Sequence record: PZ445511.1
Origin: a phage
DNA: 64,000 bases
Strand: one strand, 5' to 3'
Shown: in pieces, positions 7,951 through 43,980 of the stretch
How positions within the stretch are numbered: position 1 is the first letter of the stretch
How the letters are laid out: each line of letters begins with the position of its first letter
Position numbers and translations under genes: made by a program
Notes under the pieces: model-generated
What the model was told of the DNA's origin: nothing
Databases searched by the model: none
Seen by the model: only the letters and a program-made list of their open reading frames with translations

Positions 7951-7985
7951 AAAGAAAAAGCCAAGAATGCCTAGTTCTTGGCTTT
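7951..7985 (-). terminator. Rho-independent terminator (minus strand)
   Basis: Minus transcript hairpin gccaagaa...ttcttggc followed by UUUUU. Confidence 0.6.
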
Positions 7986-13799: not shown

Positions 13800-14195
13800 T
13801 CAATCATCATTTAGACCTGGGACATAGATCCCAATGCGATTTAATTGACCTTTAGCTTCTTCGAGAATATCTTCGGTGTACTCCCAAATATCATCTTCTA
13901 CTTGCAAAAGATAAGGGGATTCACCAGTTTCGGGGTCACGTGTAATGGCTAAGCCACGTGGATGGAATATAGAGAAGTTGAGGGCAACAATCAAGCCCAT
14001 GCTGGACAATTCATTCCAGTCAGCTTCCCAACCATCATCTTCATCTTCGTCCACAAAGACACCTACACTAGGGTCTGTTACAGAAGTAAACGGAAATGTT
14101 ACACTAACCTTGTCAACCCCCAACCAACGTGCAAGGAGCCCCTCAGCACGCTCTACCAAACTAGGATCTATCTGACGCCAAAATACTTGTTCCAT
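13800..14195 (-). CDS. Hypothetical protein, paralog of adjacent 142-aa gene
   Basis: 131 aa; shares GLxxALN, acidic WExxWxEL and C-terminal G(Y/I)xxPGL blocks with neighbour. Confidence 0.55.
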   Translation of the reverse strand: MEQVFWRQIDPSLVERAEGLLARWLGVDKVSVTFPFTSVTDPSVGVFVDEDEDDGWEADWNELSSMGLIVALNFSIFHPRGLAITRDPETGESPYLLQVEDDIWEYTEDILEEAKGQLNRIGIYVPGLNDD

Positions 14196-14204
14196 TCTGC
14201 CTCC

Positions 14205-14633
14205 TTAAGCAGTTAAACCTGGGATCATATACCCGAAACGACGAAGTTTCTGAATCCCCTCATTTACTTCCTCGGGCGAATATGACCAGCCCTCACTTTC
14301 ATTTACCTGGAAAGCAGGAGCTTCACCAGTGCGATAATTTACAATAAGACGGTGATTTGCAGGCATAAACAGCTTATGGTTCAAGGCAAAAACCAGACCC
14401 ATTTCATCGAGTTCTTTCCAGTCTACAATCTCTTCTACTCCCTCCCCTAAATCCACGCTAACTCCAATACACGGAGCTTCCTCTAGTGGGCCTTTAAAAG
14501 ACAGGAAGATATCGTTATTCTCACACCAAATCTTAAGCAGATTGATGGTTTCATTGTACATACCATTAGGGAGAGAACGCCAGAAGTTGAGGAGCATAGG
14601 ATTTACCTCTTTCATGAAAATATTATTGAACAT
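14205..14633 (-). CDS. Hypothetical protein, paralog of adjacent 131-aa gene
   Basis: 142 aa; tandem duplicate pair. Confidence 0.55.
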   Translation of the reverse strand: MFNNIFMKEVNPMLLNFWRSLPNGMYNETINLLKIWCENNDIFLSFKGPLEEAPCIGVSVDLGEGVEEIVDWKELDEMGLVFALNHKLFMPANHRLIVNYRTGEAPAFQVNESEGWSYSPEEVNEGIQKLRRFGYMIPGLTA

Positions 14634-14635
14634 GC

Positions 14636-15176
14636 TTATACCTTAAGTTTCTGAAGAGCCTTACACATTTCAAGATCTGGACTAAATTCCAGCATATAGC
14701 TTATAGCATTTAAATCTTGAAGGTTTATTCCAGTCCTGCCATTTACAATAACAGTAGGAAATTGGTACATCATAGCACCAGCATCATCTAGGACACACCA
14801 ATGCTTGAGCTTATATTTTTTCGACGAAACGTAAAACAGAATTACCCCGAGATAAACCACCTCCAGTAAAATCTGTTGTACCAAGGAAACGATCGATCAA
14901 ACCGAGCCCGGTCATAATCTGAACGTTCTCCATCTCATTTCGTACAGAAAACCATGAAGATACCCCAACAATCATTATTGGGGATGGCTTAAGAAAGTTC
15001 TGAAAAGCCTGGAGTAATGGCTTGTAAACCCAATCACCACCAAAGAATAGCTTCTCACTATCTGGAGCATGATGGTGAGAGATGCTCGAATTGAGCACCC
15101 CATCAATATCCAGGAAAATCACAGGAGTATTACTTATTTCCACCAGTAGCATCCCACGTCCAGACTTTAACTTCAT
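14636..15176 (-). pseudogene. HAD-superfamily hydrolase-like gene split across two frames (frameshift near 14811-14896)
   Basis: N-terminal ORF carries HAD motif I FLDIDGVLN; downstream overlapping ORF in another frame carries K...VLDD (motifs III/IV). Confidence 0.45.
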
Positions 15177-15296
15177 CAGTAAAAGGAACTGGAACCTTCA
15201 ATTCACCCTTACCCCCACATAACAGATAGGAACAGAGAATAAATGGTAATCATACCGATTAGGTTGACAAACCGTACTAGACCTTTCCAGATACCC

Positions 15297-15479
15297 TTAA
15301 AAATCTTCTTCACCATATTCTCCCTCCTTAATAAGGAACTCTTTCCATTCTGCTGTATCCTCATAGATAACGCAGAAATCATCACTCTTCCATGAGAAGT
15401 CATCAGTAGCAAATTCAAAACGGTAGCACCAACTACCGTCTGGCCATACTAAAAGATCACACATGCTTTTCTGGGACAT
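15297..15479 (-). CDS. Hypothetical small protein
   Basis: 60-aa ORF from internal Met (MSQKS...), overlaps end of Sir2-like gene. Confidence 0.3.
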   Translation of the reverse strand: MSQKSMCDLLVWPDGSWCYRFEFATDDFSWKSDDFCVIYEDTAEWKEFLIKEGEYGEEDF

Positions 15480-16308
15480 AAATATTTCCCTCCATAAAAG
15501 CTTCAACTTGATCAATAAAGTGTTTATTACCAAAAACTTCGGCAGCTCCAGCACGCCATACAGTAACACCACGTTTCTCATATTCAAGCTGTTCATCATA
15601 GCGAACTTGAGGGTTAACAACCATCATCTTAGTTCCACGACATACAGCAGGGAATAGTTCCCAGTTGAAGTCAATCACTTGGTTGCTACAACCTACTACA
15701 ATAACCATATCATTGCTAGTAAGTGTATCAAACAGGTTAATCTGACCCATATACCACGGAGCCGTCTCACCAAAGAATGTTACGTTTGGTTTTACCCATT
15801 CGTAATCTTCAGGAACAATTGCAGTGTATCCAACATCTTCGATGATTTGATTGCGACCCCGACGATAGATCACCTCTTTCAAGTACCCGTGAGCGTGAAT
15901 GATTTCATCACGAGGGATACCAGCACGTTCCAGAAGGTCATCAACGTTAGTAGTGAAGTTCTTCACGCTATCCGCACCATAACGCTGGAACCATTCTGCA
16001 ATTCGCAGATGGGCAATGTTAGGCTCAACAGTCTGTAATTCCTGACGACGCATGTTGTAGAACTCATGAGTCTTGAGATACAGATCGTTACCCTCTTCAT
16101 CAATGCCAGGGAAACGAGCACTGAAGTAGTTAGGATCATCTTCACCACAGAAGCGACGGAAGCCAGCTTCAAAGTTAGGCAAGCTACATACTTCCTCTAG
16201 ATCGTACTCATCCCACAAAGATTTTCCACTAGCAGTATCAGTACGGAAAGCACGAACACCACTATCAACACTTAAACCAGCACCACTAACAATGATTAGT
16301 CTACGCAT
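15457..16308 (-). CDS. Sir2-family (sirtuin-like) NAD-dependent protein
   Basis: 283 aa; N-terminal GAGLSxxSGxxxFR sirtuin NAD-binding motif and HG catalytic motif; no CxxC zinc module. Confidence 0.6.
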   Translation of the reverse strand: MRRLIIVSGAGLSVDSGVRAFRTDTASGKSLWDEYDLEEVCSLPNFEAGFRRFCGEDDPNYFSARFPGIDEEGNDLYLKTHEFYNMRRQELQTVEPNIAHLRIAEWFQRYGADSVKNFTTNVDDLLERAGIPRDEIIHAHGYLKEVIYRRGRNQIIEDVGYTAIVPEDYEWVKPNVTFFGETAPWYMGQINLFDTLTSNDMVIVVGCSNQVIDFNWELFPAVCRGTKMMVVNPQVRYDEQLEYEKRGVTVWRAGAAEVFGNKHFIDQVEAFMEGNIYVPEKHV

Positions 16309-32965: not shown

Positions 32966-33037
32966 GCCGTCCTAGTATAATAGGTATTATTAGGGCTTCA
33001 CCGCCTGAAGATGTGGGTTCGAGTCCCACGGTCGGAA
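32966..33037 (+). other. tRNA-like element (canonical T-arm, non-canonical anticodon arm, no CCA)
   Basis: gtgggTTCGAGTcccac T-arm plus 6-of-7 acceptor pairing; 5-nt loop where anticodon loop should be. Confidence 0.3.
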
Positions 33038-33499
33038 AGAGTTGGATAACTGGTGCTTCTAATGGCGAAGCAATCGCAGGCAGTTGCGCACTGCCAAAAC
33101 CACGCGGTAGTTGGTTCCAGGCTAACCAACCACTCTTGAAAAGTATATACTACGGTTTTGCTTGTTCAGGAAGCTTCGCATCGAAAATCGGAGGTGCGAT
33201 TTTATCAGACCGCGTGGAGGACGTCTCTCCGTTAAGTGACGAAAAGTGGGACGATTCAGGTAGAGCTGGATATGGAACACCTATACATATGCGGAGTGCG
33301 CACAAAGCATATTGCGGTGGTACTAAACGAAATTAGGAGTCATGACCTGCACAAGTTTAGTATGTCATAACCGATGTACATTCAGTACAAAAACCACTGA
33401 AGCTAAGATAGATAGTCACCTTGACTTAAACTGGAAGATATTGTCTGACGGAAGGGCTGCAGAGCTTAATCTGAGGGGGCTGACCCTACCTACCGTCGG

Positions 33500-33539
33500 G
33501 TATCTTTAAGAGTTCTTACGAGAACTCTTAAAGATACCT
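33500..33539 (+). other. Perfect 18-bp inverted repeat hairpin with TACG loop
   Basis: ggtatctttaagagttct / agaactcttaaagatacc, exact complement, 18 nt upstream of the next ORF. Confidence 0.8.
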
Positions 33540-33557
33540 AAACATTAAGGAATACTG

Positions 33558-34067
33558 ATGAATCTAGGAACTACTTGTATATTTGATCACAGAGAAATGT
33601 GTTGCCCACATATTCTGTATGTAGTTCACTTTGCAGAACGTCTTACTCTGGATGAAGCTCGTGAGAAAATGGGTGGAATTACTGGATATGATTTCCGTGA
33701 AGGTGAATACTTTAGCATTGCTCTTGATTACATTGACAATACCCGTCTCTATCATCTAGTGCAGCTAGGGGAAGAAACTGATGAAGTGAAAATGGCGAAA
33801 GATACTCTACGTCGTTATCGTCCTCAGATTCTAGAACGTACACTTCGTGGAGAACGTAGTGACCCATTGTTCTTGAAGTGCTATGACGCAGATGTTAATG
33901 AGTATCTAGGACAGCAACGGTTTTACACTGAAATCAAAGAGTTTGTTCGTGAAAAATACGACGCTCTACTAATTGATTCCAGAGCACGACGTGCAGCTAA
34001 AAATGCTGAGAAATCTGCTAAAGCAGCACTAGAAAGCCAAACCAAACTGAACGAAATCGTTAAGTGA
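33558..34067 (+). CDS. Hypothetical protein
   Basis: 169-aa ORF after aaggaa RBS. Confidence 0.55.
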   Translation: MNLGTTCIFDHREMCCPHILYVVHFAERLTLDEAREKMGGITGYDFREGEYFSIALDYIDNTRLYHLVQLGEETDEVKMAKDTLRRYRPQILERTLRGERSDPLFLKCYDADVNEYLGQQRFYTEIKEFVREKYDALLIDSRARRAAKNAEKSAKAALESQTKLNEIVK

Positions 34068-34075
34068 TCTAATTT

Positions 34076-34150
34076 CGGGGTGTAGTCTAAGGGATAGGCA
34101 GGAGTCTTCTAAATTCCTTTATGCAGGTTCGAATCCTGTCACCTCGGCCA
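34076..34150 (+). tRNA. tRNA-Arg (anticodon TCT)
   Basis: Acceptor cggggtg/cacctcg, anticodon loop cttctaa, T-arm gcaggTTCGAATcctgt, CCA encoded. Confidence 0.8.
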
Positions 34151-34176
34151 ATCTTATTACCTGTTAGGAAAATAAA

Positions 34177-34377
34177 ATGAAAACACGATATATAGTAAAA
34201 GTAGTAGGTGAACATTCGCAAGTAAATACCACGGATGTTACAGCACTAGCATTTGAGGTAGTCTCCGGTATAGTCATATTTCATAATGGGGATATCAAAG
34301 CTCCTGAATTTGCTGTGGATGCTGGCCTGTTTATTTCTGCAACTAAAGTAACTGTAGTAGCTAACTCTTCTAAATAA
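34177..34377 (+). CDS. Hypothetical protein
   Basis: 66-aa ORF just upstream of SPFH gene. Confidence 0.45.
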   Translation: MKTRYIVKVVGEHSQVNTTDVTALAFEVVSGIVIFHNGDIKAPEFAVDAGLFISATKVTVVANSSK

Positions 34378-34388
34378 TAAGGAAATAT

Positions 34389-35333
34389 ATGTTTACTAAA
34401 AACACTAAAGAACTGACTTCTGAGCAAAAAGTAATTCGTACTATTAAACGTTGGGGTGTTGGTGCTGCTATTAGTCTTGGTGCTCTTATTCTGGCTCTCA
34501 ATTCCTATACAGTTGTTCAGGATGGTACTGTTAAGACCCAAACCTTCCTGGGTAAAGTTAGCCCTAATCCTGTATTGCCAGGCTTCCATATTGTTAACCC
34601 ATTTGCTTCTTTTGATACTTTTAGTACGAAAGATATTTCCATGAAACTGGATAAACTTCAGGTTCCTAGCCAGGATAAGTTTAAGTCCACTGTTGACATT
34701 ACCGTTATGTTGCAGTTTGATGGTGCTAAAGCTCCTATGAACCGTGTTAACGCAGGTACTCAGGATCAAGCTCTGAACAAGTACGTTGAAGAGAAGATGC
34801 TGTCTACGATTCGTGAGTTTGGTAAGTCTGTACCAAAAGCACAAGATCTGTTCGACGCTAAGATTCAGGCTCAACTGCAAACCGCTATTCAGCAAGAAGT
34901 AGAAGAGTATGCGCGTCCTTATGGTTACACCGTTAAGCAAGTATTCCTTCAGGATATTACTCTGCCACCGGTAATCATGGAACAGGTACAGAACACCAAA
35001 GTTCGTGAAGAACAAGTTAACGCTGCAAAAGCTGAACTGGCTCGTGTTGAACAAGAAGCACAGCAGAAAGTTAAGCAAGCTGAGGCGGATCGTTCCGCTC
35101 GTGAAAACATGGCAGTAGCTAACGAACGTGACGCAGATGCTAAACTGTACGCAGCTAAGAAAGAAGCTGAAGCTAACGCCGCTCTGCAACGTACCATTAC
35201 TCCTGAAATGATTCGTTGGAAGCAGCTGGAAGTTGAAATGCTTCGTGCTGAAAAATACCAAGGTGGTGTACCACAGACTGTTGTCGGTACTGGCTACGAT
35301 GGTCAAATGATCATGGATATGCGTAACAAGTAA
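34389..35333 (+). CDS. SPFH/band-7 (stomatin/prohibitin-like) membrane protein
   Basis: 314 aa; N-terminal TM helix, SPFH core, long Ala/Gln/Glu coiled-coil C-terminus. Confidence 0.7.
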   Translation: MFTKNTKELTSEQKVIRTIKRWGVGAAISLGALILALNSYTVVQDGTVKTQTFLGKVSPNPVLPGFHIVNPFASFDTFSTKDISMKLDKLQVPSQDKFKSTVDITVMLQFDGAKAPMNRVNAGTQDQALNKYVEEKMLSTIREFGKSVPKAQDLFDAKIQAQLQTAIQQEVEEYARPYGYTVKQVFLQDITLPPVIMEQVQNTKVREEQVNAAKAELARVEQEAQQKVKQAEADRSARENMAVANERDADAKLYAAKKEAEANAALQRTITPEMIRWKQLEVEMLRAEKYQGGVPQTVVGTGYDGQMIMDMRNK

Positions 35334-35346
35334 TAGTTACACGTAA

Positions 35347-35383
35347 TCTTCGAACCAAGCCCGCGTTTCCTTCGAGAGCGCGG
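35347..35383 (+). terminator. Rho-independent terminator
   Basis: aagcccgcg...cgcgggctt hairpin then TTTCTATATTT. Confidence 0.6.
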
Positions 35384-35537
35384 GCTTTTCTATATTTAAG
35401 GCAAAAGAAAAAGCCCATAAGTTATTCAACTAAGGTCTTTAGTATTTAATTCTTTAGAATCATATACTATTATTGCAGCAACAACGTGCTAACCTTAAGT
35501 GCCCTGCGATTTTCCTCTAAAAAGTTAAAAAATTCGA

Positions 35538-35566
35538 TTGCTTGAATGCTAAATTCTCTGTATAAT
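35538..35566 (+). promoter_or_regulatory. Sigma70 promoter for nadR-pnuC
   Basis: ttgctt-17bp-tataat; leader identical to the one at 37402-37437. Confidence 0.6.
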
Positions 35567-35596
35567 ATATTTATAAATTTGAGAGAGGAATCAAAT

Positions 35597-36652
35597 ATGA
35601 TTAAGACTGGTCTAGTAATTGGTAAGTTCGCACCATTAACGCGTGGTCATATTAACCTAATAAACACAGCAGCAACTATGTGTGAACGAGTTATTGTTGT
35701 AGTTAGTCATGATAATCGTTGGCTGGATAAGCAGAACACACGTGATAAGGAAGTATTACAGTTAAAGAATCGACTTCGTTGGTTAGAACAAACTTACGCG
35801 GATATTGAGCACATTTCGGTAGAGTACATTATTGAAGATGATATTCCTGAATATCCGAATGGTTGGCCGGAATATGCTAGAATCCTTAATGAAAATTACG
35901 GACATTTGCCTGAGATCACCGTTTTCTCTAGCGAACTAGACTATGATGCAGAATATAAGAAATATCTGCCGAAGTTTGGTCATTATATTGTAGATTCTGA
36001 TCGGACTCGTGTTCCAATCTCAGCTACAATGATTCGTAATGATCTTATGAAGTATTGGGAGTTTCTTCCTAGCGTAGTTCGTAAAGATTACGTGCGTAAG
36101 GTTGTAATCATTGGGACTGAAAGCTCGGGAAAGACTACTTTAACAAAATACCTTGCGAAGCTATACAACACTTCGTGGGTAGAAGAATATGGTCGAACGT
36201 ATTGTGAAGTTGATCTAGTTGGTAACGAAAATCTGCTTACCAGCGAAGATTATAGTAAAATTGCGTTCAGACACAAAGAGCTAGAGTTTGAAGCAGAACG
36301 TACTGCAAATAAGATCATGTTTGTGGATACAAATGCTTTTATTACTGAGTTCTACCACAGACTTTATGAACATAGTAAGAATCCTGTGGTTACAGCAATT
36401 GCAAAAGAAGAACATTATGATTTAGTAATTGTTCTAGCGCCTACTGTCAAGTGGGTAGATGATGGTTTACGTATTAACTCCGATCGTTCAATTACTTCTG
36501 AACTATTCGAGCAGATGAAGAAAGAATTTCCAAATCAGTTCCCTGAAGGGCGTACTGTTTACATCGACTCTCCGGACTACAAAGTTCGTATGGACGAAGC
36601 AGTAAACGCAGTAGACTGGCTGATTCATCACTTTAACGTTGGAGAGTTTTAA
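35597..36652 (+). CDS. nadR: NadR-type bifunctional NMN adenylyltransferase / ribosylnicotinamide kinase
   Basis: N-terminal nucleotidyltransferase GKFAPLTRGH (HxGH-class), C-terminal P-loop GTESSGKTTL kinase; start set after gagagagg RBS. Confidence 0.75.
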   Translation: MIKTGLVIGKFAPLTRGHINLINTAATMCERVIVVVSHDNRWLDKQNTRDKEVLQLKNRLRWLEQTYADIEHISVEYIIEDDIPEYPNGWPEYARILNENYGHLPEITVFSSELDYDAEYKKYLPKFGHYIVDSDRTRVPISATMIRNDLMKYWEFLPSVVRKDYVRKVVIIGTESSGKTTLTKYLAKLYNTSWVEEYGRTYCEVDLVGNENLLTSEDYSKIAFRHKELEFEAERTANKIMFVDTNAFITEFYHRLYEHSKNPVVTAIAKEEHYDLVIVLAPTVKWVDDGLRINSDRSITSELFEQMKKEFPNQFPEGRTVYIDSPDYKVRMDEAVNAVDWLIHHFNVGEF

Positions 36653-36653
36653 T

Positions 36654-37331
36654 ATGACTAACTATCTCGTAAATGACTTTAAAAACTGGAAACCTCTGGA
36701 ATATCTGTGGCTGTTCATAGCGGTTGTCTTCATTAGTTTAGCAAACTATAATGGTACAGCTCTAGATTGGGCTACTGCAATAACCAATGTGGTTTGTGTT
36801 ATTCTGGTTGCAAAAGGACGTATTTCCAACTATATTTGGGGCTTAGTGGGTGTTCTTACATATGGTATTACAGCTTTAAACGCAGATCTTTATGGTAACG
36901 CTGCACTAAACCTGCTATACTACGTTCCTATGCAGTTTTATGGAATGTACTTATGGCATAAAAATAAGCCAAGTAATCTGCCAGATGTTCCAACTAAGGT
37001 TCTGACTAAAGCCCAAGCTCTGCTGACTCTAGGGATTCTAGCAGTAGCCACGTTAGGGTATGGTAGTTTCTTAGCTACTACGGCTGATCCATTTCCAATG
37101 TTGGATGCATTTACTGCTGTAGGTAGTGTGATCGCTATGTGGCTTATGGTTAAGCAATATGCCGAGCAGTGGCTGATCTGGATTGCTATTAACATTGGTA
37201 CTGTGTACATTTGGCTTGTAACTGCTCAATCTACAGGTGCATCTTATGCAATCCTAGCAATGTGGCTAGTATTCTTAGGTAACTCTATTATAGGAGCCTA
37301 TAAAGGATACTTTGTACGCGTTAACAAATAA
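36654..37331 (+). CDS. pnuC: PnuC-like nicotinamide riboside transporter
   Basis: Multi-helix membrane protein with conserved W/Y-rich PnuC-like blocks; coupled to nadR. Confidence 0.65.
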   Translation: MTNYLVNDFKNWKPLEYLWLFIAVVFISLANYNGTALDWATAITNVVCVILVAKGRISNYIWGLVGVLTYGITALNADLYGNAALNLLYYVPMQFYGMYLWHKNKPSNLPDVPTKVLTKAQALLTLGILAVATLGYGSFLATTADPFPMLDAFTAVGSVIAMWLMVKQYAEQWLIWIAINIGTVYIWLVTAQSTGASYAILAMWLVFLGNSIIGAYKGYFVRVNK

Positions 37332-37338
37332 AGTAGTT

Positions 37339-37364
37339 ATAGCCCTCGCTTAGAGGGCTATTAT
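37339..37364 (+). terminator. Hairpin terminator after pnuC
   Basis: atagccctc-gctta-gagggctat, weak U-tract. Confidence 0.45.
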
Positions 37365-37378
37365 ACAGAAATTTTCAC

Positions 37379-37407
37379 TTGCTTAATATAGAAAATTTCT
37401 GTATAAT
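37379..37407 (+). promoter_or_regulatory. Sigma70 promoter
   Basis: ttgctt-17bp-tataat; -10 plus leader plus RBS duplicated from nadR promoter. Confidence 0.6.
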
Positions 37408-37437
37408 ATATTTATAAATTTGAGAGAGGAATCAAAT

Positions 37438-37734
37438 ATGAAACGCATTGTACTTGCATTGACTCTAGTATCTACTTCTGTATTTGCTGCTCCACAACAG
37501 GAACTTTGTCAAGTTCAAGTTTGTAATAAGCTAGAACGATTTACTCTAGACATTTGGTCCCACATTAAAGATAATATGGGTGAACAGTGTTTTGATATTG
37601 TTCTGCCAAAAGAACAAGCTGTTCCTGGGGCTGTTCTCAGCTCAGAATCACGTTGGTGGCAAGGTTCTTCTATCAACCCAACTAAGAAGTCAGTGACACG
37701 TATCAAACAAGTATATCAGTGCAACGTTCAGTAA
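37438..37734 (+). CDS. Secreted Cys-containing protein
   Basis: Signal peptide MKRIVLALTLVSTSVFA then mature domain with 4 Cys. Confidence 0.55.
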   Translation: MKRIVLALTLVSTSVFAAPQQELCQVQVCNKLERFTLDIWSHIKDNMGEQCFDIVLPKEQAVPGAVLSSESRWWQGSSINPTKKSVTRIKQVYQCNVQ

Positions 37735-37742
37735 AATTTCAC

Positions 37743-37771
37743 TTGCTTAATGCCGAAATTTTCTGTATAAT
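37743..37771 (+). promoter_or_regulatory. Sigma70 promoter
   Basis: ttgctt-17bp-tataat. Confidence 0.55.
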
Positions 37772-37804
37772 ATATTCATAAATTTGGAAGATTAGGAACT
37801 ATTT

Positions 37805-38314
37805 ATGTTAGACTATGAGTCTATACTTTATAGATTCCGTTTAGAAGATGGTGTACTGGTGTGGAATCCGCTCTCCGGAAACTCCAGAGAGGAGAAGATA
37901 TTTAATACTAAGTTTGCCAATAAACCTGCGGGATCTTTGCACAAAAGCTCTGGGTATATCAGAGTTAACGTTGATCACCAAGATTACTTAGCTCATATCA
38001 TAGTATTTATACTATGATATGGGTATAGGCCGGAAATGGTTGATCATAAAGACTGCAATAAGTTAAATATACATCCTTTAAATTTAAGAGCAGCGGATAG
38101 TACCACTAATACTCATAATGCTAGTAAATCTTCTAGGAATACTAGCGGATTTAAGGGAGTATCCTACCACAAAGCATCTGGTCAGTGGCAGGGTAGAATA
38201 ATGTTTAAAGGTAAGTCATACTCCGCAGGGCTGCACAGTACTCCTGAAGCAGCAAATGAAGCTCTAATTCAACTGAGAGAGAAACTTCATGGGGAATATG
38301 CCCGAAATAATTAA
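37805..38314 (+). pseudogene. HNH homing endonuclease interrupted by in-frame TGA at 38015-38017
   Basis: Reading continues in the same frame across TGA: ...AHIIVFIL-stop-YGYRPEMVDHKDC..., matching the paralog sequence FIMYYGYRPEEVDHKD. Confidence 0.55.
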
Positions 38315-38403
38315 GGAAGAATAGCATAACGGTATTGCAGCAGATTGCTAATCTGTCGGTTTGAAACATAGCCTTGTGGGTTCGATTCCCACTTCTTCCG
38401 CCA
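38315..38403 (+). tRNA. tRNA-Ser (anticodon GCT), class II
   Basis: Acceptor ggaagaa/ttcttcc, anticodon loop ttgctaa, long variable arm, T-arm gtgggTTCGATTcccac, CCA. Confidence 0.75.
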
Positions 38404-38408
38404 AATTT

Positions 38409-38486
38409 GGTTCTCAAGCTCATTTGGTATGAGCCGTCGCCTCATAAGCGAAAGGTAGGTAGGTTCGAATCCTCCGGGAGCCACCA
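38409..38486 (+). tRNA. tRNA with CAT anticodon (Met or Ile2)
   Basis: Acceptor ggttctc/gggagcc (two G-U), D-arm gctc...gagc, anticodon loop ctcataa, T-loop TTCGAAT, CCA; A at position 8. Confidence 0.65.
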
Positions 38487-38635
38487 GATAACTAGGAGAC
38501 TTTATGTCACGCTTTCACGAAATTAAGCAAGAACTAGAAGAATGTATGTGTACTGAATGTTGGGGTTCTGGCACTTAATGTTCCAGTGACTGGATTCCCT
38601 GATTGGCTGCAAGGTTACGAACTCTAACAAAATTT

Positions 38636-38721
38636 GGATCTGTGGTGGAATTGGCAATACACACCATGCTTAAAACGTGGCGCTTAAATGATTGAGGGTT
38701 CGAGCCCCTCCAGATCCACCA
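38636..38721 (+). tRNA. tRNA-Leu (anticodon TAA), class II
   Basis: Acceptor ggatctg/cagatcc, anticodon loop cttaaaa, 13-nt variable arm, T-arm gagggTTCGAGCccctc, CCA. Confidence 0.75.
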
Positions 38722-38737
38722 AATTAAGGAAGTAAAA

Positions 38738-38860
38738 ATGAAATCTATTAAGAAAGCTATTCGTGAACTTATCCGTTGTCGCTTCCATAACATCAAGGCT
38801 TCAACTAATGGTACTACTTACGATCGCTATGATCCTAAGTTTGGCTTACATTCTAAATAA
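38738..38860 (+). CDS. Hypothetical small protein
   Basis: 40-aa ORF with aaggaag RBS. Confidence 0.35.
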   Translation: MKSIKKAIRELIRCRFHNIKASTNGTTYDRYDPKFGLHSK

Positions 38861-38873
38861 CTGGAGAAAACAA

Positions 38874-39080
38874 ATGGCTAATCCTGAAATTACGGCACAA
38901 CGTTTTATGCTGAAAGGAATTATTGCTGAAGCAGGCGTGACACAAGAAGTGGAAGATTTCCATAAGCAGTTCCTAAATATTCTCACTCAAGCCAAAGAGC
39001 TAGGAGAGAAAGAACATGGCGCGGCTATTATGGCAATCACATTGGTTGGGCTTGATCTGGCAGAAGAATCAGGAGTTTAA
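38874..39080 (+). CDS. Hypothetical protein
   Basis: 68 aa from ATG after ggagaaa RBS. Confidence 0.45.
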   Translation: MANPEITAQRFMLKGIIAEAGVTQEVEDFHKQFLNILTQAKELGEKEHGAAIMAITLVGLDLAEESGV

Positions 39081-39110
39081 CTTCTCCAAGCAGAAATTTT
39101 AAAAATGTAC

Positions 39111-39140
39111 TTGCTTTTTACTTAAGATTTCTGCTATAAT
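39111..39140 (+). promoter_or_regulatory. Sigma70 promoter
   Basis: ttgctt-18bp-tataat. Confidence 0.5.
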
Positions 39141-39169
39141 AGTTATATAAGTTGATGAGAGGAATCAGA

Positions 39170-39445
39170 ATGTTAAAACGTTTTGCAGCAACTGGTATTG
39201 AAAGCTCAGTATGTAAATCCTGGGGTGGTTGGGAAGGTGAGATCGAGTGGCTTTATTTCTACAATGTAGAACTTCTTCCAGAGATCAAAGCTCAATGTAT
39301 TGAGGCTGGTATGGCTCCTGATGCTACGGCTGATGTTGAAATCAGCATGAATAAGCTAGAGGGTCGAGTAGTCACTGTTACTGATGAAGGTGAAGAGGTA
39401 TTCGAACTTCCATTCACTTTGAAAGTCACTCCTTCATTTGATTAA
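39170..39445 (+). CDS. Hypothetical protein
   Basis: 91 aa from ATG after gagagg RBS. Confidence 0.5.
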   Translation: MLKRFAATGIESSVCKSWGGWEGEIEWLYFYNVELLPEIKAQCIEAGMAPDATADVEISMNKLEGRVVTVTDEGEEVFELPFTLKVTPSFD

Positions 39446-39483
39446 CTGATACAGCACTTGAGCAAGTTCTTTAAAATTTGACT

Positions 39484-39512
39484 TGCTCAAGTGCCTTAAA
39501 ACTTGATATAAT
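39484..39512 (+). promoter_or_regulatory. Sigma70 promoter for tRNA transcription unit; -35 lies inside a 13-bp inverted repeat
   Basis: ttgctc-17bp-tataat; approx 124-nt leader before tRNA-Tyr. Confidence 0.55.
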
Positions 39513-39636
39513 AGTTACCTAATTTGGAAACATATCTGAATGAGAAGTAATTAAGCGAGTTGCTTTGAGGGATAAAGTCAGGATAGCCGGAAATATTCCA
39601 CCTTGAGTTTAACCGACTTACTTTTCATTCAAATAT

Positions 39637-39717
39637 GGGGGATTGGCTCAGTGGCGACGGCGCCTGGCTGTAGACCGGGTATATCACGCGGAGGTTCGAG
39701 TCCTCCATCCCCCACCA
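39637..39717 (+). tRNA. tRNA-Tyr (anticodon GTA)
   Basis: Acceptor gggggat/atccccc, anticodon stem cctgg/ccggg with loop ctgtaga, extended variable region, T-arm ggaggTTCGAGTcctcc, CCA. Confidence 0.7.
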
Positions 39718-39725
39718 AAATTAAT

Positions 39726-39800
39726 GCACCTATCGTCTAATGGTTAGGACATCAGGATTTCAATCTGAGAATTGAACTCCGATTCTCCGTGGGTGTGCCA
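39726..39800 (+). tRNA. tRNA-Glu-like (anticodon TTC) with degenerate T-arm
   Basis: Good acceptor, D- and anticodon arms (loop atttcaa); T-arm tgaac/tccgatt/ctccg pairs poorly; CCA encoded. Confidence 0.45.
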
Positions 39801-39809
39801 ATTAATAAT

Positions 39810-39880
39810 TGGGGTACACATAGGTTGCTAGTGGGCCTCCAAAACCCATGAAAAGGTTTCGAATACCTTTACCCCTGCCA
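39810..39880 (+). tRNA. tRNA-Trp-like (anticodon CCA) with truncated D-arm
   Basis: Canonical T-arm aaggtTTCGAATacctt and CCA; anticodon loop ctccaaa with C31-A39 mismatch; U1-U72 mismatch; only 15 nt for the D region. Confidence 0.35.
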
Positions 39881-39886
39881 ATATTT

Positions 39887-39961
39887 GCACCTTTAGCTGA
39901 GATGGATTAGCGCTTGCCTGAAGAGCTTGAGAGGTTCGTTCAATTCGAACAGGGTGCACCA
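39887..39961 (+). tRNA. tRNA-Phe (anticodon GAA), weak anticodon stem
   Basis: Acceptor gcacctt/agggtgc, D-arm gctg...tagc, anticodon loop ctgaaga, T-arm gttcgTTCAATTcgaac, CCA. Confidence 0.55.
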
Positions 39962-39978
39962 ATTTGAAGGAGATGCTG

Positions 39979-40251
39979 ATGCATCCTGAAAACTTCTTTA
40001 TATACTGTACTAGTCCTTTGCTTAAACGCCGGATTAATAAAGTATATCACTACAGAGCTAGTCAACAGCCTTATGTTTATGATTCTAGTGGAGATCATAT
40101 TCCACTTGAGCAACTAGGGACTGATTATATGGTTTTGAAGCACTTTAATGAGGCGAAGATCTCTAGCGTTCATAACCGACAAAACTCTAAAACGTGGTGG
40201 CATAAGAAGCGTAAGAAAGGCATCAAATTTCTTAAAAATGTAGTTGCTTAA
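39979..40251 (+). CDS. Hypothetical protein
   Basis: Track ORF begins at TTG 39964 abutting the tRNA; ATG at 39979 has aggag at proper spacing. Confidence 0.45.
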   Translation: MHPENFFIYCTSPLLKRRINKVYHYRASQQPYVYDSSGDHIPLEQLGTDYMVLKHFNEAKISSVHNRQNSKTWWHKKRKKGIKFLKNVVA

Positions 40252-40272
40252 ATCCTTAAAGTTCTGTATAAT
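40244..40272 (+). promoter_or_regulatory. Sigma70 promoter
   Basis: ttgctt-17bp-tataat overlapping upstream stop codon. Confidence 0.55.
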
Positions 40273-40300
40273 TATTACATAAATTGAACTGGAGAACTAG

Positions 40301-40489
40301 ATGAAAGCACCTAAACCGAAATTAGTTAAGTTCGACTGCTGTGATACTGAAATCTTATTTACTAAGTTTGGTGAATTTAAGATGTGTGAATGTGGAACAT
40401 GTGGTTACGATCATGGTGATGGATATTATTGCAGAACCCTAGGGCCTTCTGAACTAATCCACTTCTCATGGCCGGAAAGTAAAGAATAA
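40301..40489 (+). CDS. Hypothetical Cys-rich small protein
   Basis: 62 aa with CC...CxC...CxxC pattern; ggagaa RBS. Confidence 0.5.
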   Translation: MKAPKPKLVKFDCCDTEILFTKFGEFKMCECGTCGYDHGDGYYCRTLGPSELIHFSWPESKE

Positions 40490-40491
40490 TA

Positions 40492-40567
40492 CGACCGTTG
40501 GCTGAATGGCTTAGGCGGAGGCCTGCAAAACCTCCTTATGTGAGTTCGAATCTCATGCGGTCGTCCA
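40492..40567 (+). tRNA. tRNA-Cys (anticodon GCA)
   Basis: Acceptor cgaccgt/gcggtcg, anticodon loop ctgcaaa (C31-A39), T-arm gtgagTTCGAATctcat, CCA. Confidence 0.65.
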
Positions 40568-40719
40568 ATTTGCTGAAAGAATTGTTAAATCAATTCAGGC
40601 ACGCGTAGGAACACTGCCTCAGTAATTGAAAGATGAGGCACGGTTTGGAGAGGTATGCCGCTACACGCTACGGTGCTAACTCCGTCTAGGTGAAAATCCT
40701 AGTCAGCAATATAAATTTA

Positions 40720-40802
40720 GGGTCGTTAGCCAAGCGGTTTGGCGGTGGACTGTTAATCCATGTCGAAAGACAACGTAGGTTCGAATCCTACACGGCCCGC
40801 CA
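40720..40802 (+). tRNA. tRNA with GTT anticodon (Asn) and unusual 13-nt variable arm
   Basis: Acceptor gggtcgt/acggccc, D-arm gcca...tggc, anticodon loop ctgttaa, variable gtcgaaagacaac, T-arm gtaggTTCGAATcctac, CCA. Confidence 0.65.
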
Positions 40803-40905
40803 TATTCTATGTAGGATTAAGTAAACCGGTAGCCAACCAGCTATCATTACTGATATCGAATTCAGTCACAGATACCATTTTTCACTAACAACTGAGGAAA
40901 TAGAT

Positions 40906-41091
40906 ATGACAACTCGTGCAATTGCTCGACTAGAAGCTGATCGTGATAATCTGATTAATAATATTAAGGTTCGTGGTAATATTATTAAGGCTCTGAAAGC
41001 TGAACTTCTTGAAGAACTTCAAGGTCAAGTAGAGCGTCGTGAAGCTCTAAAAGAGGTTGAGGAAGCTATCGAAAAACTCAAGGCTGAATAA
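40906..41091 (+). CDS. Hypothetical coiled-coil protein
   Basis: 61-aa ORF with gaggaaa RBS. Confidence 0.5.
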   Translation: MTTRAIARLEADRDNLINNIKVRGNIIKALKAELLEELQGQVERREALKEVEEAIEKLKAE

Positions 41092-41094
41092 ATT

Positions 41095-41676
41095 ATGCAC
41101 GGAATATCCTTACCCATTCCAGGGTTTGAGGAGTACTTAGTAAGTTTGGATGGGTTAGTATTTAGTATCAAATCAAACAAAATACTAACCCCAATAACCA
41201 GTAATTATGGATACTTATCTATACGTCTCCATAAAAATGGTCAACAGAGAAATACCGGTGTACATAGGATTTTAGCATGTGCATTTAAGAAATTACCAAG
41301 TCTAGACTCTGAACTAGAAGTTGACCATATTAACACAGACATTACTTATTGGGGTCTTAATAACTTACAAGTGCTCACAAAAGAGCAGCATCTAGAAAAG
41401 ACTTTAAAAGATAAAGGATTTAGTAAACTAAATCATGATAATTGTTGTAAGGATTGTGGTAAAGCTATTTCTTTAAAAGCTGAAAAATGTCAGGAGTGCT
41501 CTTCACATAAACCAAAAGATATCTCTATAACTAAAGAAATAATCGAGGTTACAGTAAGAGAGCTAGGCTGGTCAGGTGCAGGGAGAAAGTTAAATTATTC
41601 AGATAATGGGTTGCGTAAAAGATACACTTCTTTAGGAGGCAATCCTAAAGAACTTAAAAAGTTAAAGGTACTATAG
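41095..41676 (+). CDS. HNH homing endonuclease (NUMOD4-like N-terminus, HNH core, C-terminal zinc ribbon)
   Basis: 193 aa; GFEEYLVSLDG, VHRILA...VDHINTD...NL, CCKDCGK...CQEC. Confidence 0.7.
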   Translation: MHGISLPIPGFEEYLVSLDGLVFSIKSNKILTPITSNYGYLSIRLHKNGQQRNTGVHRILACAFKKLPSLDSELEVDHINTDITYWGLNNLQVLTKEQHLEKTLKDKGFSKLNHDNCCKDCGKAISLKAEKCQECSSHKPKDISITKEIIEVTVRELGWSGAGRKLNYSDNGLRKRYTSLGGNPKELKKLKVL

Positions 41677-41741
41677 TCTAACGGTTAGGATACTCCCCTG
41701 TCACGGGAGAGGTAGGGTTTCGATTACCCTTAGTACCGCCA
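41667..41741 (+). tRNA. tRNA-Asp (anticodon GTC)
   Basis: Acceptor ggtacta/tagtacc, anticodon stem ctccc/gggag loop ctgtcac, T-arm agggtTTCGATTaccct, CCA; 5' end overlaps HNH gene stop. Confidence 0.8.
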
Positions 41742-41747
41742 AATTAT

Positions 41748-41824
41748 ACATCCATAGCTCAACTGGTCAGAGCTACCGCCTCTTAAGCGGAGGGTTGAAG
41801 GTTCAAGTCCTTCTGGGAGTACCA
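41748..41824 (+). tRNA. tRNA-Lys (anticodon CTT)
   Basis: D-arm gctc...gagc, anticodon loop ctcttaa, T-arm gaaggTTCAAGTccttc, CCA; one acceptor mismatch. Confidence 0.65.
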
Positions 41825-42027
41825 AACAAATAGAGTAAAGGCTACAGTAGGTGCACCCTTACGGACTGCTACACCGGACTCTATTCATTAACAAACATTC
41901 TAGCGTGGTGGAGAGGGGACACCAGCTGTGCGAGGGTAGAAGCTTGTTCGATTCAAGTGAAAGAATGGTTCTCGTAAATCCGCAGCAGTGATAGTAGGTT
42001 CAAGTCCTACCTAGATTGACTTATTAT

Positions 42028-42101
42028 GCGTTCGTAGTTAAAAGGTATAATTTTTGGTTGCCAACCAGAAGTTGAGGGTTCGATTCCCTCCGACCGCACC
42101 A
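42028..42101 (+). tRNA. tRNA-Gly (anticodon GCC)
   Basis: Acceptor gcgttcg/cgaccgc (one mismatch), anticodon loop ttgccaa, T-arm gagggTTCGATTccctc, CCA. Confidence 0.7.
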
Positions 42102-42351
42102 AATTTAGGGTTCTGCTTCCTAGAGAACGGACTCCTAGATAAACAAGGCGATGAGTTTCCGGCCGGTTCTAGTCGCTGAAAATCCTCCCGACCAGGTAGG
42201 TGTAGGTAAACGAAAGTTTACTTATTGAGTAGGTTCCGATAGATCGGCGGATCTATTCTGGCATTTAAGAGAAGTCTCGCAAACTTCTTTGTCAGCAGAG
42301 CGTTTGAAGCGTGAGGTGGCCTACACAATAAGTAAATTTATTAAAAACTCA

Positions 42352-42381
42352 TTTGCTATTTCACTTAATTCTCTTTATAAT
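42352..42381 (+). promoter_or_regulatory. Sigma70 promoter for tRNA transcription unit
   Basis: ttgcta-18bp-tataat directly upstream of tRNA-Pro. Confidence 0.55.
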
Positions 42382-42413
42382 ATATCTTATAAAGTGAGTT
42401 AACAAAGAATATT

Positions 42414-42491
42414 CTCCGTGTAGCTCAGTTTGGCCAGAGCGTTCCGTTTGGGGCGGTAGGGTCGGGGGTTCAAATCCTCCCACGGAGACCA
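42414..42491 (+). tRNA. tRNA-Pro (anticodon TGG)
   Basis: Acceptor ctccgtg/cacggag, D-arm gctc...gagc, anticodon loop tttgggg (G37), T-arm gggggTTCAAATcctcc, CCA. Confidence 0.75.
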
Positions 42492-42497
42492 AACAAT

Positions 42498-42575
42498 TGC
42501 GGGTTAGATCTCTGGTAGAGATCGCTAGTCTCATAAGCTAGAAAGAGGTAGGTTCGATTCCTACACCCGCTTCCA
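42498..42575 (+). tRNA. tRNA with CAT anticodon (Met-type; unpaired 1-72, possibly initiator-like)
   Basis: Anticodon stem ctagt/gctag loop ctcataa, T-arm gtaggTTCGATTcctac, CCA; position 1 U opposite U72. Confidence 0.6.
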
Positions 42576-42594
42576 ATTTAATAGAGGATACGAA

Positions 42595-42759
42595 ATGAAA
42601 TTATTTCGATTGGTAGTAAGTGATAGACGGTCTAGCAAAGATCGTTCGAAGTATACCTTAGCCCATTATGGGAAAGATGAAAATGAAGTAATGGCTGAAT
42701 TTGGTATTAATCATCGCTACTTAGAAGTTTACTCTATTAAGGAAGTTTATCCGTATTAA
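42595..42759 (+). CDS. Hypothetical small protein
   Basis: 54-aa ORF with agagga RBS between two tRNAs. Confidence 0.4.
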   Translation: MKLFRLVVSDRRSSKDRSKYTLAHYGKDENEVMAEFGINHRYLEVYSIKEVYPY

Positions 42760-42837
42760 GGGTCGTTAGCTCAATTGGTTAGTAGCACTTGCCTTTTAAG
42801 CAATAGGTTGAAGGTTCGAGTCCTTCACGACCCACCA
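42760..42837 (+). tRNA. tRNA-Lys (anticodon TTT)
   Basis: Acceptor gggtcgt/acgaccc, anticodon loop cttttaa, T-arm gaaggTTCGAGTccttc, CCA. Confidence 0.75.
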
Positions 42838-42846
42838 AATTACTTT

Positions 42847-42920
42847 GCTCGGTTAGTTTAATGGGAGAACCCCGTCTTTACACGGCGGTTGCGATAGTTC
42901 GATTCTATCACCGAGTACCA
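42847..42920 (+). tRNA. tRNA-Val (anticodon TAC)
   Basis: Acceptor gctcggt/accgagt, anticodon stem ccgtc/ggcgg loop tttacac, T-arm gatagTTCGATTctatc, CCA. Confidence 0.75.
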
Positions 42921-42939
42921 ATTAACTCAAAATAAGGAA

Positions 42940-43299
42940 TTGCAAATGCAATTATCAAGCAAGATTCAAGGCTATTTTGGTCATGTAACAATGGAGTTCG
43001 CTATCTCTAAAGGTTGGGATTTCGAGCAAGATCTAGCTGAGTTCTACAAAGATATTGATCTGAACGTACCATACATGGGACTCTCCACTGGTCAAGAGAT
43101 CACAGAAGGCGATGTGTTCAAGGCAAGTCAAGGTGAGGTAACACCTAATTTTGCCAAGTTCTGGTTAGGACTTACTTTGAAGGAAGATGCACCAGAGGAT
43201 GGTGTGGTTATGCAGAGTATGCACTCTGGAAGCTCTGATTACCTTTTCGTTAGCGACGTTAAGGAACTACAAGAAATCGCTAAAAATGTACTTGCTTGA
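42940..43299 (+). CDS. Hypothetical protein
   Basis: 119-aa ORF (TTG start per track; internal ATG 6 nt later) after aaggaa RBS. Confidence 0.5.
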   Translation: MQMQLSSKIQGYFGHVTMEFAISKGWDFEQDLAEFYKDIDLNVPYMGLSTGQEITEGDVFKASQGEVTPNFAKFWLGLTLKEDAPEDGVVMQSMHSGSSDYLFVSDVKELQEIAKNVLA

Positions 43300-43320
43300 T
43301 GCTTAATTTCTTGTTATAAT
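43292..43320 (+). promoter_or_regulatory. Sigma70 promoter overlapping upstream stop codon
   Basis: ttgctt-17bp-tataat then gatgagga-GAAA-tcctcatc hairpin in leader. Confidence 0.55.
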
Positions 43321-43582
43321 ATTTATATAAATTGATGAGGAGAAATCCTCATCAAAGTTCACTAAGGTATTAGCTCGACCTAGGGCTGGCTGCCAAAAAG
43401 CACAATTGCAATTAGACCCCTAATGGCGGGGGATACTTTGCAATAAGTTCTAGATTAGTCCACTAGATTCAGTGGCAACTGAATAGTGTATCGGGTTTGT
43501 GAAGAGCGGTTATCCTCTACTGGCTAATGTCTGAGGGTAATACGCACACCGAGCTAATAGCCTTAGTAAACTTAAAGATTTT

Positions 43583-43661
43583 GGGGAATGGGTCTGCTTG
43601 GAGTGGACACCTCGCTTGCACCGAGGATATCAGAAGAGTTCGAATCTCTTATTCTCCACCA
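43583..43661 (+). tRNA. tRNA-Ala-like (anticodon TGC), G3-U70 present, 7-nt variable loop
   Basis: Acceptor ggggaat/attctcc with G3-U70, anticodon stem cctcg/cgagg loop cttgcac, T-arm aagagTTCGAATctctt, CCA. Confidence 0.55.
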
Positions 43662-43666
43662 AATTC

Positions 43667-43742
43667 GGGGTCATAGGTTATTTGGTTAAACTTACTGCCT
43701 TGCAAGCAGTGGAACTCAGTTCAATTCTGAGTGACTCCACCA
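43667..43742 (+). tRNA. tRNA-Ala (anticodon TGC)
   Basis: Acceptor ggggtca/tgactcc with G3-U70, anticodon stem actgc/gcagt loop cttgcaa, T-arm ctcagTTCAATTctgag, CCA. Confidence 0.7.
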
Positions 43743-43761
43743 AACAAATTAAGGAAATAAT

Positions 43762-43980
43762 ATGGTATTCTTAGCAGCCTCTGTAGTTCTTGCAGCTTTA
43801 GCACTAGCTATCTATTTTAGAACTATTAAAGATTTAGCTAAAGAAAAGAAAACTTTCTTTACTGATTATTCTTGGGGCGCTCCATATAACGTCCGCTTTA
43901 TCAGCTTAGAAGCTATGCTGATAATGGTATTCAGTGGCATAGGTTCCATTGTTGCAGGGTTACTATTTATTTCTAACTAA
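43762..43980 (+). CDS. Hypothetical small membrane protein
   Basis: 72 aa with two hydrophobic helices; aaggaaa RBS. Confidence 0.5.
   Translation: MVFLAASVVLAALALAIYFRTIKDLAKEKKTFFTDYSWGAPYNVRFISLEAMLIMVFSGIGSIVAGLLFISN

What the first reader, a model, noticed from the sequence alone, without database searches (positions are those of the whole stretch)
14636..15176. HAD-like hydrolase gene split by a frameshift
HAD motif I (FLDIDGVLN) is in one frame and a K...VLDD block (motifs III/IV) continues in an overlapping ORF in another frame. The switch must occur between 14811 and 14896. This could be a pseudogene, a sequencing indel or a programmed frameshift.
Basis: seen in the sequence. Interest (0 to 1): 0.45.

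Follow-up and report, generated by a model that had tools for sequence, protein, structure and literature searches.

The report
One-base frameshift in phage HAD gene
A small phosphatase-like (HAD) gene of a T5-like Salmonella/E. coli phage is broken in two by one extra A in a run of As; relatives have the gene intact, so this is an ordinary recent mutation or sequencing slip, not a programmed frameshift.

Summary
On the minus strand, ORF1 (14811-15176) and ORF2 (14636-14884) are the two halves of one HAD_SAK_2 (PF18143) gene, the homolog of phage T5 gene T5.105.

The break is located exactly. The coding strand has A6 (plus-strand T-run 14816-14821), whereas close relatives have A5 and an uninterrupted 540-nt ORF. 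Deleting one A gives a 179-aa protein 100% identical to the one in at least six other phages. In a tblastn sample, 60 of 60 records carry the gene in a single frame.

A programmed frameshift is not supported. The shift is not conserved, it needs +1 rather than -1, and no downstream RNA structure stands out (z = -0.5).

The same A6 allele occurs on a different haplotype in phages misterkot and PMBT26. SP_Thor has a stop codon five codons downstream, and SHSML-45 and DT57C match only part of the gene. The gene therefore looks dispensable and repeatedly lost.

All substitutions downstream of the shift are synonymous against the nearest relatives, so the event is recent, or it is an assembly error. 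Over about 48 kb, the only other indel unique to the window is a one-base insertion about 400 bp away, at 15212-15216. It truncates the adjacent small membrane ORF.

This is ordinary and of low interest.

The parts
14636..15176 (-). Whole disrupted HAD_SAK_2 gene (homolog of phage T5 gene T5.105). It is 541 nt here and 540 nt in relatives.
   Evidence: Relatives annotate one CDS over this span.
14811..15176 (-). ORF1, 121 aa: the N-terminal two thirds of the HAD domain. It holds motif I (D23-x-D25), motif II (S73/S74) and R110, and ends ...VEKI*.
   Evidence: Pfam HAD_SAK_2 positions 1-99, E 5.9e-11. Invariant columns.
15090..15116 (-). HAD motif I, FLDIDGVLN. It includes the predicted nucleophile Asp23 and acid/base Asp25.
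   Evidence: Sequence. F21-N29 are invariant in 28 homologs.
14816..14821 (-). The lesion. The coding strand reads A6 (GUC GAA AAA AUA UAA). Relatives have A5 (GUC GAA AAA UAU AAG ...) or GAAAAG/GAAAAAC, all in frame.
   Evidence: Alignments. States in 10 relatives. Indel list.
14636..14815 (-). The part of ORF2 that is real coding sequence: the C-terminal third of the HAD domain (YKLKHWCVLDDAG...KLKV*), read in the +1 frame relative to ORF1. The ORF2 codons from 14816 up to 14884 are only an out-of-frame overlap.
   Evidence: Pfam positions 95-138. phrog_1818 positions 102-161. Repaired translation.
14783..14788 (-). HAD motif IV, D130-D131 (predicted Mg2+ ligands). The frameshift separates it from motifs I-III.
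   Evidence: Sequence. D130 is invariant and D131 is at least 90% conserved. It sits at the end of core strand E126-130 in the model.
15212..15216 (-). Second one-base insertion unique to the window: plus-strand C5, against C4 in 8 of the 10 relatives (GEC_vB_N7 and misterkot differ by a substitution but have the same in-frame length). It creates a TAA at 15209-15211.
   Evidence: None of 210 GenBank records reaches 99% identity over this 101-nt stretch.
15209..15316 (-). Truncated small membrane-like ORF immediately upstream (T5.104 position). It is 35 aa here and 61 aa in relatives, where its stop overlaps the HAD gene start.
   Evidence: Translations. Annotations.

Best explanation
The window comes from a T5-like phage (Demerecviridae, Epseptimavirus/Tequintavirus). 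The feature is the homolog of T5 gene T5.105, a small, capless HAD-superfamily phosphatase of the HAD_SAK_2 family. It lies in an early operon with a Sir2-like gene and two DUF7415 paralogs.

One extra A in an A5 run (A5 to A6; plus-strand 14816-14821) shifts the frame after codon 120. ORF1 then ends two codons later. The last third of the enzyme, comprising core beta-strand 126-130, the motif IV Asp-Asp Mg2+ ligands and two C-terminal helices, is left in the +1 frame.

The shift is not programmed. It is a replication-slippage type insertion at a homopolymer. Most likely it is a genuine and very recent loss-of-function mutation in a dispensable accessory gene, and the 121-aa product is predicted to be inactive.

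Shown: the split, its exact site, the intact state in relatives, the HAD fold, the recurrence of the allele, and the other loss alleles. Inferred: that the insertion is in the phage DNA rather than in the assembly, that the truncated protein is inactive, and that the intact enzyme dephosphorylates a macromolecular (RNA-end) substrate.
For: - Relatives have one 540-nt ORF with A5 at the site.
- The repaired protein is 100% identical to the protein encoded in EH4, LVR16A, SB13, EH5, CRW-SP5 and PYC03. In a spread tblastn sample, 60 of 60 records gave a single-frame match.
- The same A6 allele is present in misterkot and PMBT26. These two records come from different labs, are 99.6% identical to each other, and are only about 95.8% identical to the window over 3 kb, whereas the window is 99.0-99.1% identical to S147 and polluks, which are in frame. 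The allele is therefore viable in nature and arose at least twice.
- Other loss alleles of the gene exist. SP_Thor has TGG to TAG at W126. In SHSML-45 and DT57C only part of the gene matches.
- The window is not littered with homopolymer errors. Across about 48 kb compared with S147, polluks and bux, only two net indels are unique to the window (14816-21 and 15212-16), although the full 64-kb window holds 168 A5/T5 and 22 A6/T6 runs. The other homopolymer differences are shared with one relative or another.
Against: No reads are available, so an assembly or base-calling error at the homopolymer cannot be excluded.

Several observations fit an error as well as they fit a very recent mutation. 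All 4-5 nucleotide differences downstream of the shift, against GEC_vB_N7, LVR16A and bux, are synonymous in the ORF2 frame. The exact A6 sequence on the window's haplotype occurs in no other record. The two unique insertions lie only about 400 bp apart, which could reflect a local low-quality stretch.
Confidence: 0.55

Rival explanations
1. Sequencing or assembly artefact. The phage really has A5 (and C4 at 15212), and the extra bases are homopolymer over-calls in the consensus. The gene would then be intact and functional.
For: - Both window-unique indels are one-base insertions in homopolymers.
- The repaired protein is 100% identical to proteins in other phages, and every downstream substitution against the nearest relatives is synonymous.
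- The exact allele on this haplotype is seen nowhere else.
- The two insertions cluster within about 400 bp, as would happen in a locally poor region.
Against: - Only 2 such events appear in about 48 kb, although the 64-kb window holds 190 A/T runs of 5-6. The remaining homopolymer length differences are shared with one relative or another.
- The identical A5 to A6 change exists in two independently deposited genomes from different labs. This shows it is a real, tolerated allele in this phage group.
Confidence: 0.35
2. Recoding. The full-length enzyme is still made from the A6 allele in one of two ways. Either tRNA-Lys makes a +1 ribosomal slip on GAA-AAA-AUA (AAA re-pairs with AAA and the next codon becomes UAU), or transcriptional slippage drops one A. 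The split would then be regulatory rather than inactivating.
For: - On paper, a +1 slip on the A-run reproduces exactly the wild-type sequence ...VEKYKLKHW... (sequence; repaired translation).
- The 0-frame codon after the run is AUA followed by UAA. By general knowledge, AUA is rare in enterobacteria, which could favour pausing.
- A6 recurs in two lineages.
Against: - There is no conservation. Relatives are in frame with A5, GAAAAG or GAAAAAC at the site, and 60 of 60 sampled records are single-frame.
- The direction is +1, so the usual -1 X XXY YYZ logic does not apply.
- No stable downstream structure is predicted (MFE -25.7 kcal/mol against -23.7 for shuffles, z = -0.5).
- By general knowledge, six As is too short for efficient RNA polymerase slippage.
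- Closely related phages encode tRNA-Lys(UUU) and several CAU-anticodon tRNAs, one of which may read AUA, so AUA need not be a hungry codon.
Confidence: 0.03
3. Selected loss or a contingency switch. The A-run would act as a mutational hot spot through which T5-like phages repeatedly switch off T5.105, and here also the neighbouring T5.104-like gene. The benefit might be, for example, escape from a host defence that senses the protein or its activity.
For: - Independent truncations fall at codons 121 (two origins) and 126 (SP_Thor), and two further phages match only part of the gene.
- In the window, the only two unique indels in about 48 kb hit adjacent genes of one operon.
Against: - Only about 3 A6 records are known among roughly 440 matches, so loss is rare.
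- An A5 run is not unusually mutable, and the window holds 168 runs of that length.
- No host or defence data exist, and the literature searches for this gene and family found nothing relevant.
- Relaxed selection on an accessory gene explains the same pattern.
Confidence: 0.07

Closest known systems
Phage T5 gene T5.105 and its orthologs in Tequintavirus/Epseptimavirus (UniRef name 'RNA repair protein'; PHROG phrog_1818)
   Same: The operon position is the same: Sir2-like gene, two small ORFs, this gene, then two DUF7415 paralogs. Nucleotide identity is 83-99%. The repaired protein is 100% identical to several orthologs.
   Different: The window copy carries one extra A (A6 rather than A5) and so is split into 121-aa and 82-aa ORFs. 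Orthologs are single ORFs of 168-179 aa.
Pfam PF18143 HAD_SAK_2 (HAD domain of 'Swiss Army Knife' RNA repair proteins)
   Same: The match covers the full profile, 1-138 of 139, at E 8.3e-18 once repaired. All homologs found carry this domain.
   Different: Here it is a stand-alone single-domain protein, not part of a multi-domain repair protein. No RNA-repair activity has been demonstrated for it; the name is a prediction.
Capless (C0-type) HAD phosphatases: MDP-1 (1u7o), Scp1 CTD phosphatase (1t9z), and the phosphatase domain of polynucleotide kinase/phosphatase (3u7e)
   Different: Sequence identity is only 9-18%. The Foldseek E-values are weak, with none at or below 0.001. The substrate is unknown.
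The same A6 frameshift allele in Salmonella phages misterkot (MT074453) and PMBT26 (PP926508)
   Same: The insertion is at the identical site. It gives the same 121-aa ORF1, annotated in full in PMBT26 and from a later start in misterkot.
   Different: The haplotype differs (TTTTGTAGAAAAAAT against TTTCGTCGAAAAAAT; about 95.8% identity over 3 kb), so the origin is probably independent. Those phages keep the upstream small ORF intact.

Membership tests
HAD superfamily phosphatase | Motif I, DxDx(T/V), at the end of beta-strand 1 | tested here: met
   FLDIDGVLN at 15090-15116 (minus strand). F21-N29 are invariant in 28 homologs. It follows strand E19-22 in the model.
HAD superfamily phosphatase | Motif II, a conserved Ser/Thr at the end of strand 2 | tested here: met
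   In VGVSSWF, G71, S73, S74, W75 and F76 are invariant. The motif follows strand E68-71.
HAD superfamily phosphatase | Motif III, a conserved Lys/Arg | tested here: inconclusive
R110-G111 is invariant and lies at the start of helix 108-120. The assignment rests on position only, and no active-site superposition was made.
HAD superfamily phosphatase | Motif IV, acidic DD/DxxxD residues that bind Mg2+, on the same polypeptide as motifs I-III | tested here: not met
   D130-D131 are conserved, but in this window they lie in the +1 frame (14783-14788), beyond the ORF1 stop at 14811-14813. The feature is met in every intact relative.
HAD superfamily phosphatase | Rossmannoid HAD fold | tested here: met
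Pfam PF18143 HAD_SAK_2 | Score above the curated gathering cut-off (27.5 bits) | tested here: met
   ORF1 alone scores 43.3 bits. ORF2 alone scores 14 bits, below the cut-off. The repaired protein scores 65.5 bits.
Programmed ribosomal frameshift or transcriptional slippage site | The frameshift requirement and shift site are conserved among homologs | tested here: not met
   Relatives are in frame with A5, GAAAAG or GAAAAAC at the site. 60 of 60 sampled records gave a single-frame match.
Programmed ribosomal frameshift or transcriptional slippage site | A canonical slippery motif in the right direction, plus a downstream stimulatory structure | tested here: not met
   The shift needed is +1 (or -2), not -1. 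The 131 nt spanning the site and the roughly 115 nt downstream fold no better than shuffles (z = -0.5). The run is only 6 As.
Programmed ribosomal frameshift or transcriptional slippage site | A trans-frame protein product is observed | not testable with these tools
   This needs mass spectrometry, a western blot or a reporter assay.
Sir2 (NAD-dependent deacetylase), the name RefSeq gives this gene | Match to the SIR2 domain profile | tested here: not met
   At E up to 1, Pfam reports only HAD_SAK_2 for ORF1, ORF2 and the repaired protein. The true Sir2 gene is the neighbour at 15457-16308 (PF02146, E 2e-21). The label traces back to the annotation of T5.105.

The most novel reading that the evidence does not exclude
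The A-run in T5.105 homologs might be a recurrent off-switch. T5-like phages would repeatedly lose the C-terminal third of this HAD enzyme (A6 arising twice, a nonsense codon five codons downstream in SP_Thor), and in this genome also the tail of the adjacent small membrane protein. The cause would be that loss is advantageous on some hosts, for example by evading a defence system that senses the enzyme or its product. A weaker variant of this reading is that low-level +1 slippage on GAA-AAA-AUA keeps a trickle of full-length enzyme.
Probability: 0.07. Interest if true: 0.5.

Novelty: already known. Interest (0 to 1): 0.1.

Why it matters
It matters little beyond annotation hygiene. The two ORFs should be annotated as one disrupted gene, a HAD_SAK_2 phosphatase and T5.105 homolog, and not as two hypothetical proteins or as 'Sir2'.

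The assembly should be checked at two homopolymers, 14816-14821 and 15212-16.

If the insertions are real, this phage is a natural double mutant for T5.104/T5.105-like genes. It could be used to ask what this conserved but evidently dispensable early operon does. The biochemical function of the HAD_SAK_2 protein in T5-like phages remains untested.

Tried and rejected
- A sequence search of the repaired protein against PDB chains gave only spurious matches to His-tag/TEV linkers, caused by the protein's own HHH...LFFGG stretch. It was discarded, and fold comparison was used instead.
- Exact-pattern scans for the A6 allele found nothing in IMG/VR viral contigs or in JGI metagenome contigs. The A5 allele was found only twice in IMG/VR and not at all in the metagenomes. 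These collections therefore hold too few such phages to be informative.
- An exact look-up of the two split ORFs in the 15-billion-protein collection found neither. The source record of the window could not be identified; the best GenBank match is about 99.1% (S147, polluks).
- Literature searches for T5.105, PF18143 and HAD_SAK_2 returned nothing. A search for 'Swiss Army Knife', 'RNA repair' and 'HAD' returned four papers, none evidently about this gene.
- I first misread the S147 sequence at the site as an A7 run. The alignment shows it is GAAAAACAT (VEKHK), in frame.
- I considered and rejected the idea that the two ORFs are unrelated overlapping genes. They map to consecutive parts of one Pfam profile and one PHROG profile.

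Full report
**What is there.** Two overlapping ORFs lie on the minus strand: 14811-15176 (121 aa, containing FLDIDGVLN) and 14636-14884 (82 aa, containing HWCVLDD). Pfam places them on consecutive parts of a single profile, HAD_SAK_2 (PF18143). ORF1 covers profile positions 1-99 (E 5.9e-11, 43.3 bits; cut-off 27.5). ORF2 covers positions 95-138 (E 0.064). PHROGs gives the same picture with phrog_1818.

**Where the window comes from.** The region is 95-99% identical to about 200 Salmonella and Escherichia T5-like phages (Demerecviridae: Epseptimavirus and Tequintavirus). The best matches are S147 and polluks at about 99.1%. The gene is the homolog of phage T5 gene T5.105. It sits in an early operon with a Sir2-like gene (window 15457-16308), two small ORFs, and two DUF7415 paralogs (14205-14633 and 13800-14195).

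**The lesion.** In GEC_vB_N7, LVR16A, S132 and ESCO40 the same stretch is one uninterrupted CDS of 540 nt or slightly less. The alignment shows a single difference in length. The window reads GTC GAA AAA ATA TAA (A6; plus-strand T-run 14816-14821). Relatives read GTC GAA AAA TAT AAG ... (A5), or GAAAAG/GAAAAAC, and stay in frame.

Deleting one A gives a 179-aa protein that matches the full HAD_SAK_2 profile (1-138 of 139, E 8.3e-18). That protein is 100% identical to the one encoded by EH4, LVR16A, SB13, EH5, CRW-SP5 and PYC03. In a spread tblastn sample, all 60 records match in a single frame. Neither split ORF exists there.

**Is it a programmed frameshift?** The evidence says no.
- The need for a shift is not conserved.
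- The shift required is +1 (or -2), so a -1 slippery-heptamer mechanism does not apply.
- The RNA spanning the site and the roughly 115 nt downstream folds no better than shuffled sequence (z = -0.5).
- Six As is short for RNA polymerase slippage (general knowledge).

On paper, tRNA-Lys could slip +1 on GAA-AAA-AUA and regenerate the wild-type sequence. Some leakiness therefore cannot be excluded, but nothing indicates that it is a selected feature.

**Real mutation or artefact?** Reads are not available, so I looked for indirect evidence.

- *The assembly is not riddled with homopolymer errors.* I compared about 48 kb of the window with S147, polluks and bux. Only two net indels are unique to the window: this one, and a C4 to C5 insertion at 15212-15216. 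The full 64-kb window holds 168 A5/T5 and 22 A6/T6 runs. The other homopolymer length differences are shared with one relative or another, so they are real polymorphisms.
- *The same allele exists elsewhere.* The identical A5 to A6 change is present in two GenBank genomes from different laboratories, misterkot and PMBT26, where the 121-aa ORF is likewise annotated. Those two are 99.6% identical to each other but only about 95.8% identical to the window over 3 kb. The window's nearest relatives, at 99.0-99.1%, are in frame. The allele is therefore viable in nature and arose at least twice.
- *The gene is lost in other ways.* SP_Thor has TGG to TAG five codons downstream. In SHSML-45 and DT57C only part of the gene matches.

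Other observations point the opposite way.
- All 4-5 substitutions downstream of the shift, against GEC_vB_N7, LVR16A and bux, are synonymous in the ORF2 frame.
- The two unique insertions lie within about 400 bp of each other.
- The exact allele on this haplotype is seen nowhere else.

These fit a very recent mutation, but they fit a local consensus error equally well. My estimates are about 55% real recent mutation, 35% artefact, 7% selected or contingency loss, and 3% recoding.

Residues that are invariant or nearly so across homologs correspond to the HAD motifs:
- D23 and D25: motif I
- S73 and S74: motif II
- R110: probably motif III
- D130 and D131: motif IV

By the established HAD mechanism, D23 would form the aspartyl-phosphate intermediate and D130/D131 would hold the Mg2+ ion. 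The frameshift after codon 120 removes core strand 126-130, motif IV and the two C-terminal helices. The 121-aa product should therefore be inactive (inference). The 'RNA repair' role is a family-name prediction, and the literature searches found no experimental work on this family.

**The neighbouring lesion.** The insertion at 15212-15216 creates a TAA at 15209-15211. It shortens the small membrane-like ORF upstream (the T5.104 position) from 61 to 35 aa. None of 210 GenBank records reaches 99% identity over that 101-nt stretch. In relatives the stop codon of this ORF overlaps the start region of the HAD gene, which suggests translational coupling. That coupling would be lost here (inference).

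**Verdict.** This is a correctly spotted, precisely localised, non-programmed one-base frameshift in a known and dispensable phage accessory gene. The same allele is already present in public genomes. It is ordinary, and its main value is for annotation and assembly checking.

Noticed in passing
window 15209-15316 (minus strand); insertion at 15212-15216: A second one-base homopolymer insertion unique to the window (plus-strand C5, against C4 in most relatives) truncates the small membrane-like ORF just upstream of the HAD gene from 61 to 35 aa. Together with the HAD frameshift, it is the only net indel unique to the window in about 48 kb.
   Followed up: yes
window 7958-7984: The 7-nt loop of a perfect 10-bp hairpin (AAGCCAAGAA / TTCTTGGCTT) reads TGCCTAG here but CTAGGCA, its reverse complement, in S147, polluks and bux. 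This is a hairpin-loop inversion in a terminator-like element near the stop codon of the small gene that polluks and bux annotate as a transcriptional regulator.
   Followed up: partly
window 14636-15176, and RefSeq records of T5-like phages (e.g. T5.105, HOT54_gp127): RefSeq names this HAD gene 'Sir2 (NAD-dependent deacetylase)', and PHROG phrog_18062 carries the same label. Pfam finds no SIR2 domain in it, and the true Sir2 gene is the neighbour at 15457-16308. This looks like a propagated annotation error.
   Followed up: yes
L013 (Salmonella phage SP_Thor NC_103484), locus about 676-678: There is an independent nonsense mutation (TGG to TAG at W126) in the same gene, five codons downstream of the window's frameshift. 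In SHSML-45 and DT57C only the C-terminal part of the gene matches.
   Followed up: partly
window 13800-14633 (minus strand): Two tandem paralogs carrying DUF7415 (PF24187; E 9e-37 and 3e-28) lie directly downstream of the HAD gene. Some records annotate them as 'exonuclease', and their function is unknown.
   Followed up: no
window about 33000-48000: Alignment with S147, polluks and bux places a large tRNA gene cluster interspersed with small ORFs and homing endonucleases in this part of the window. This region aligns only patchily between the window and these close relatives (80-99% identity, with gaps between blocks), so it is the most mosaic part compared. I did not scan the window itself for tRNAs.
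   Followed up: no
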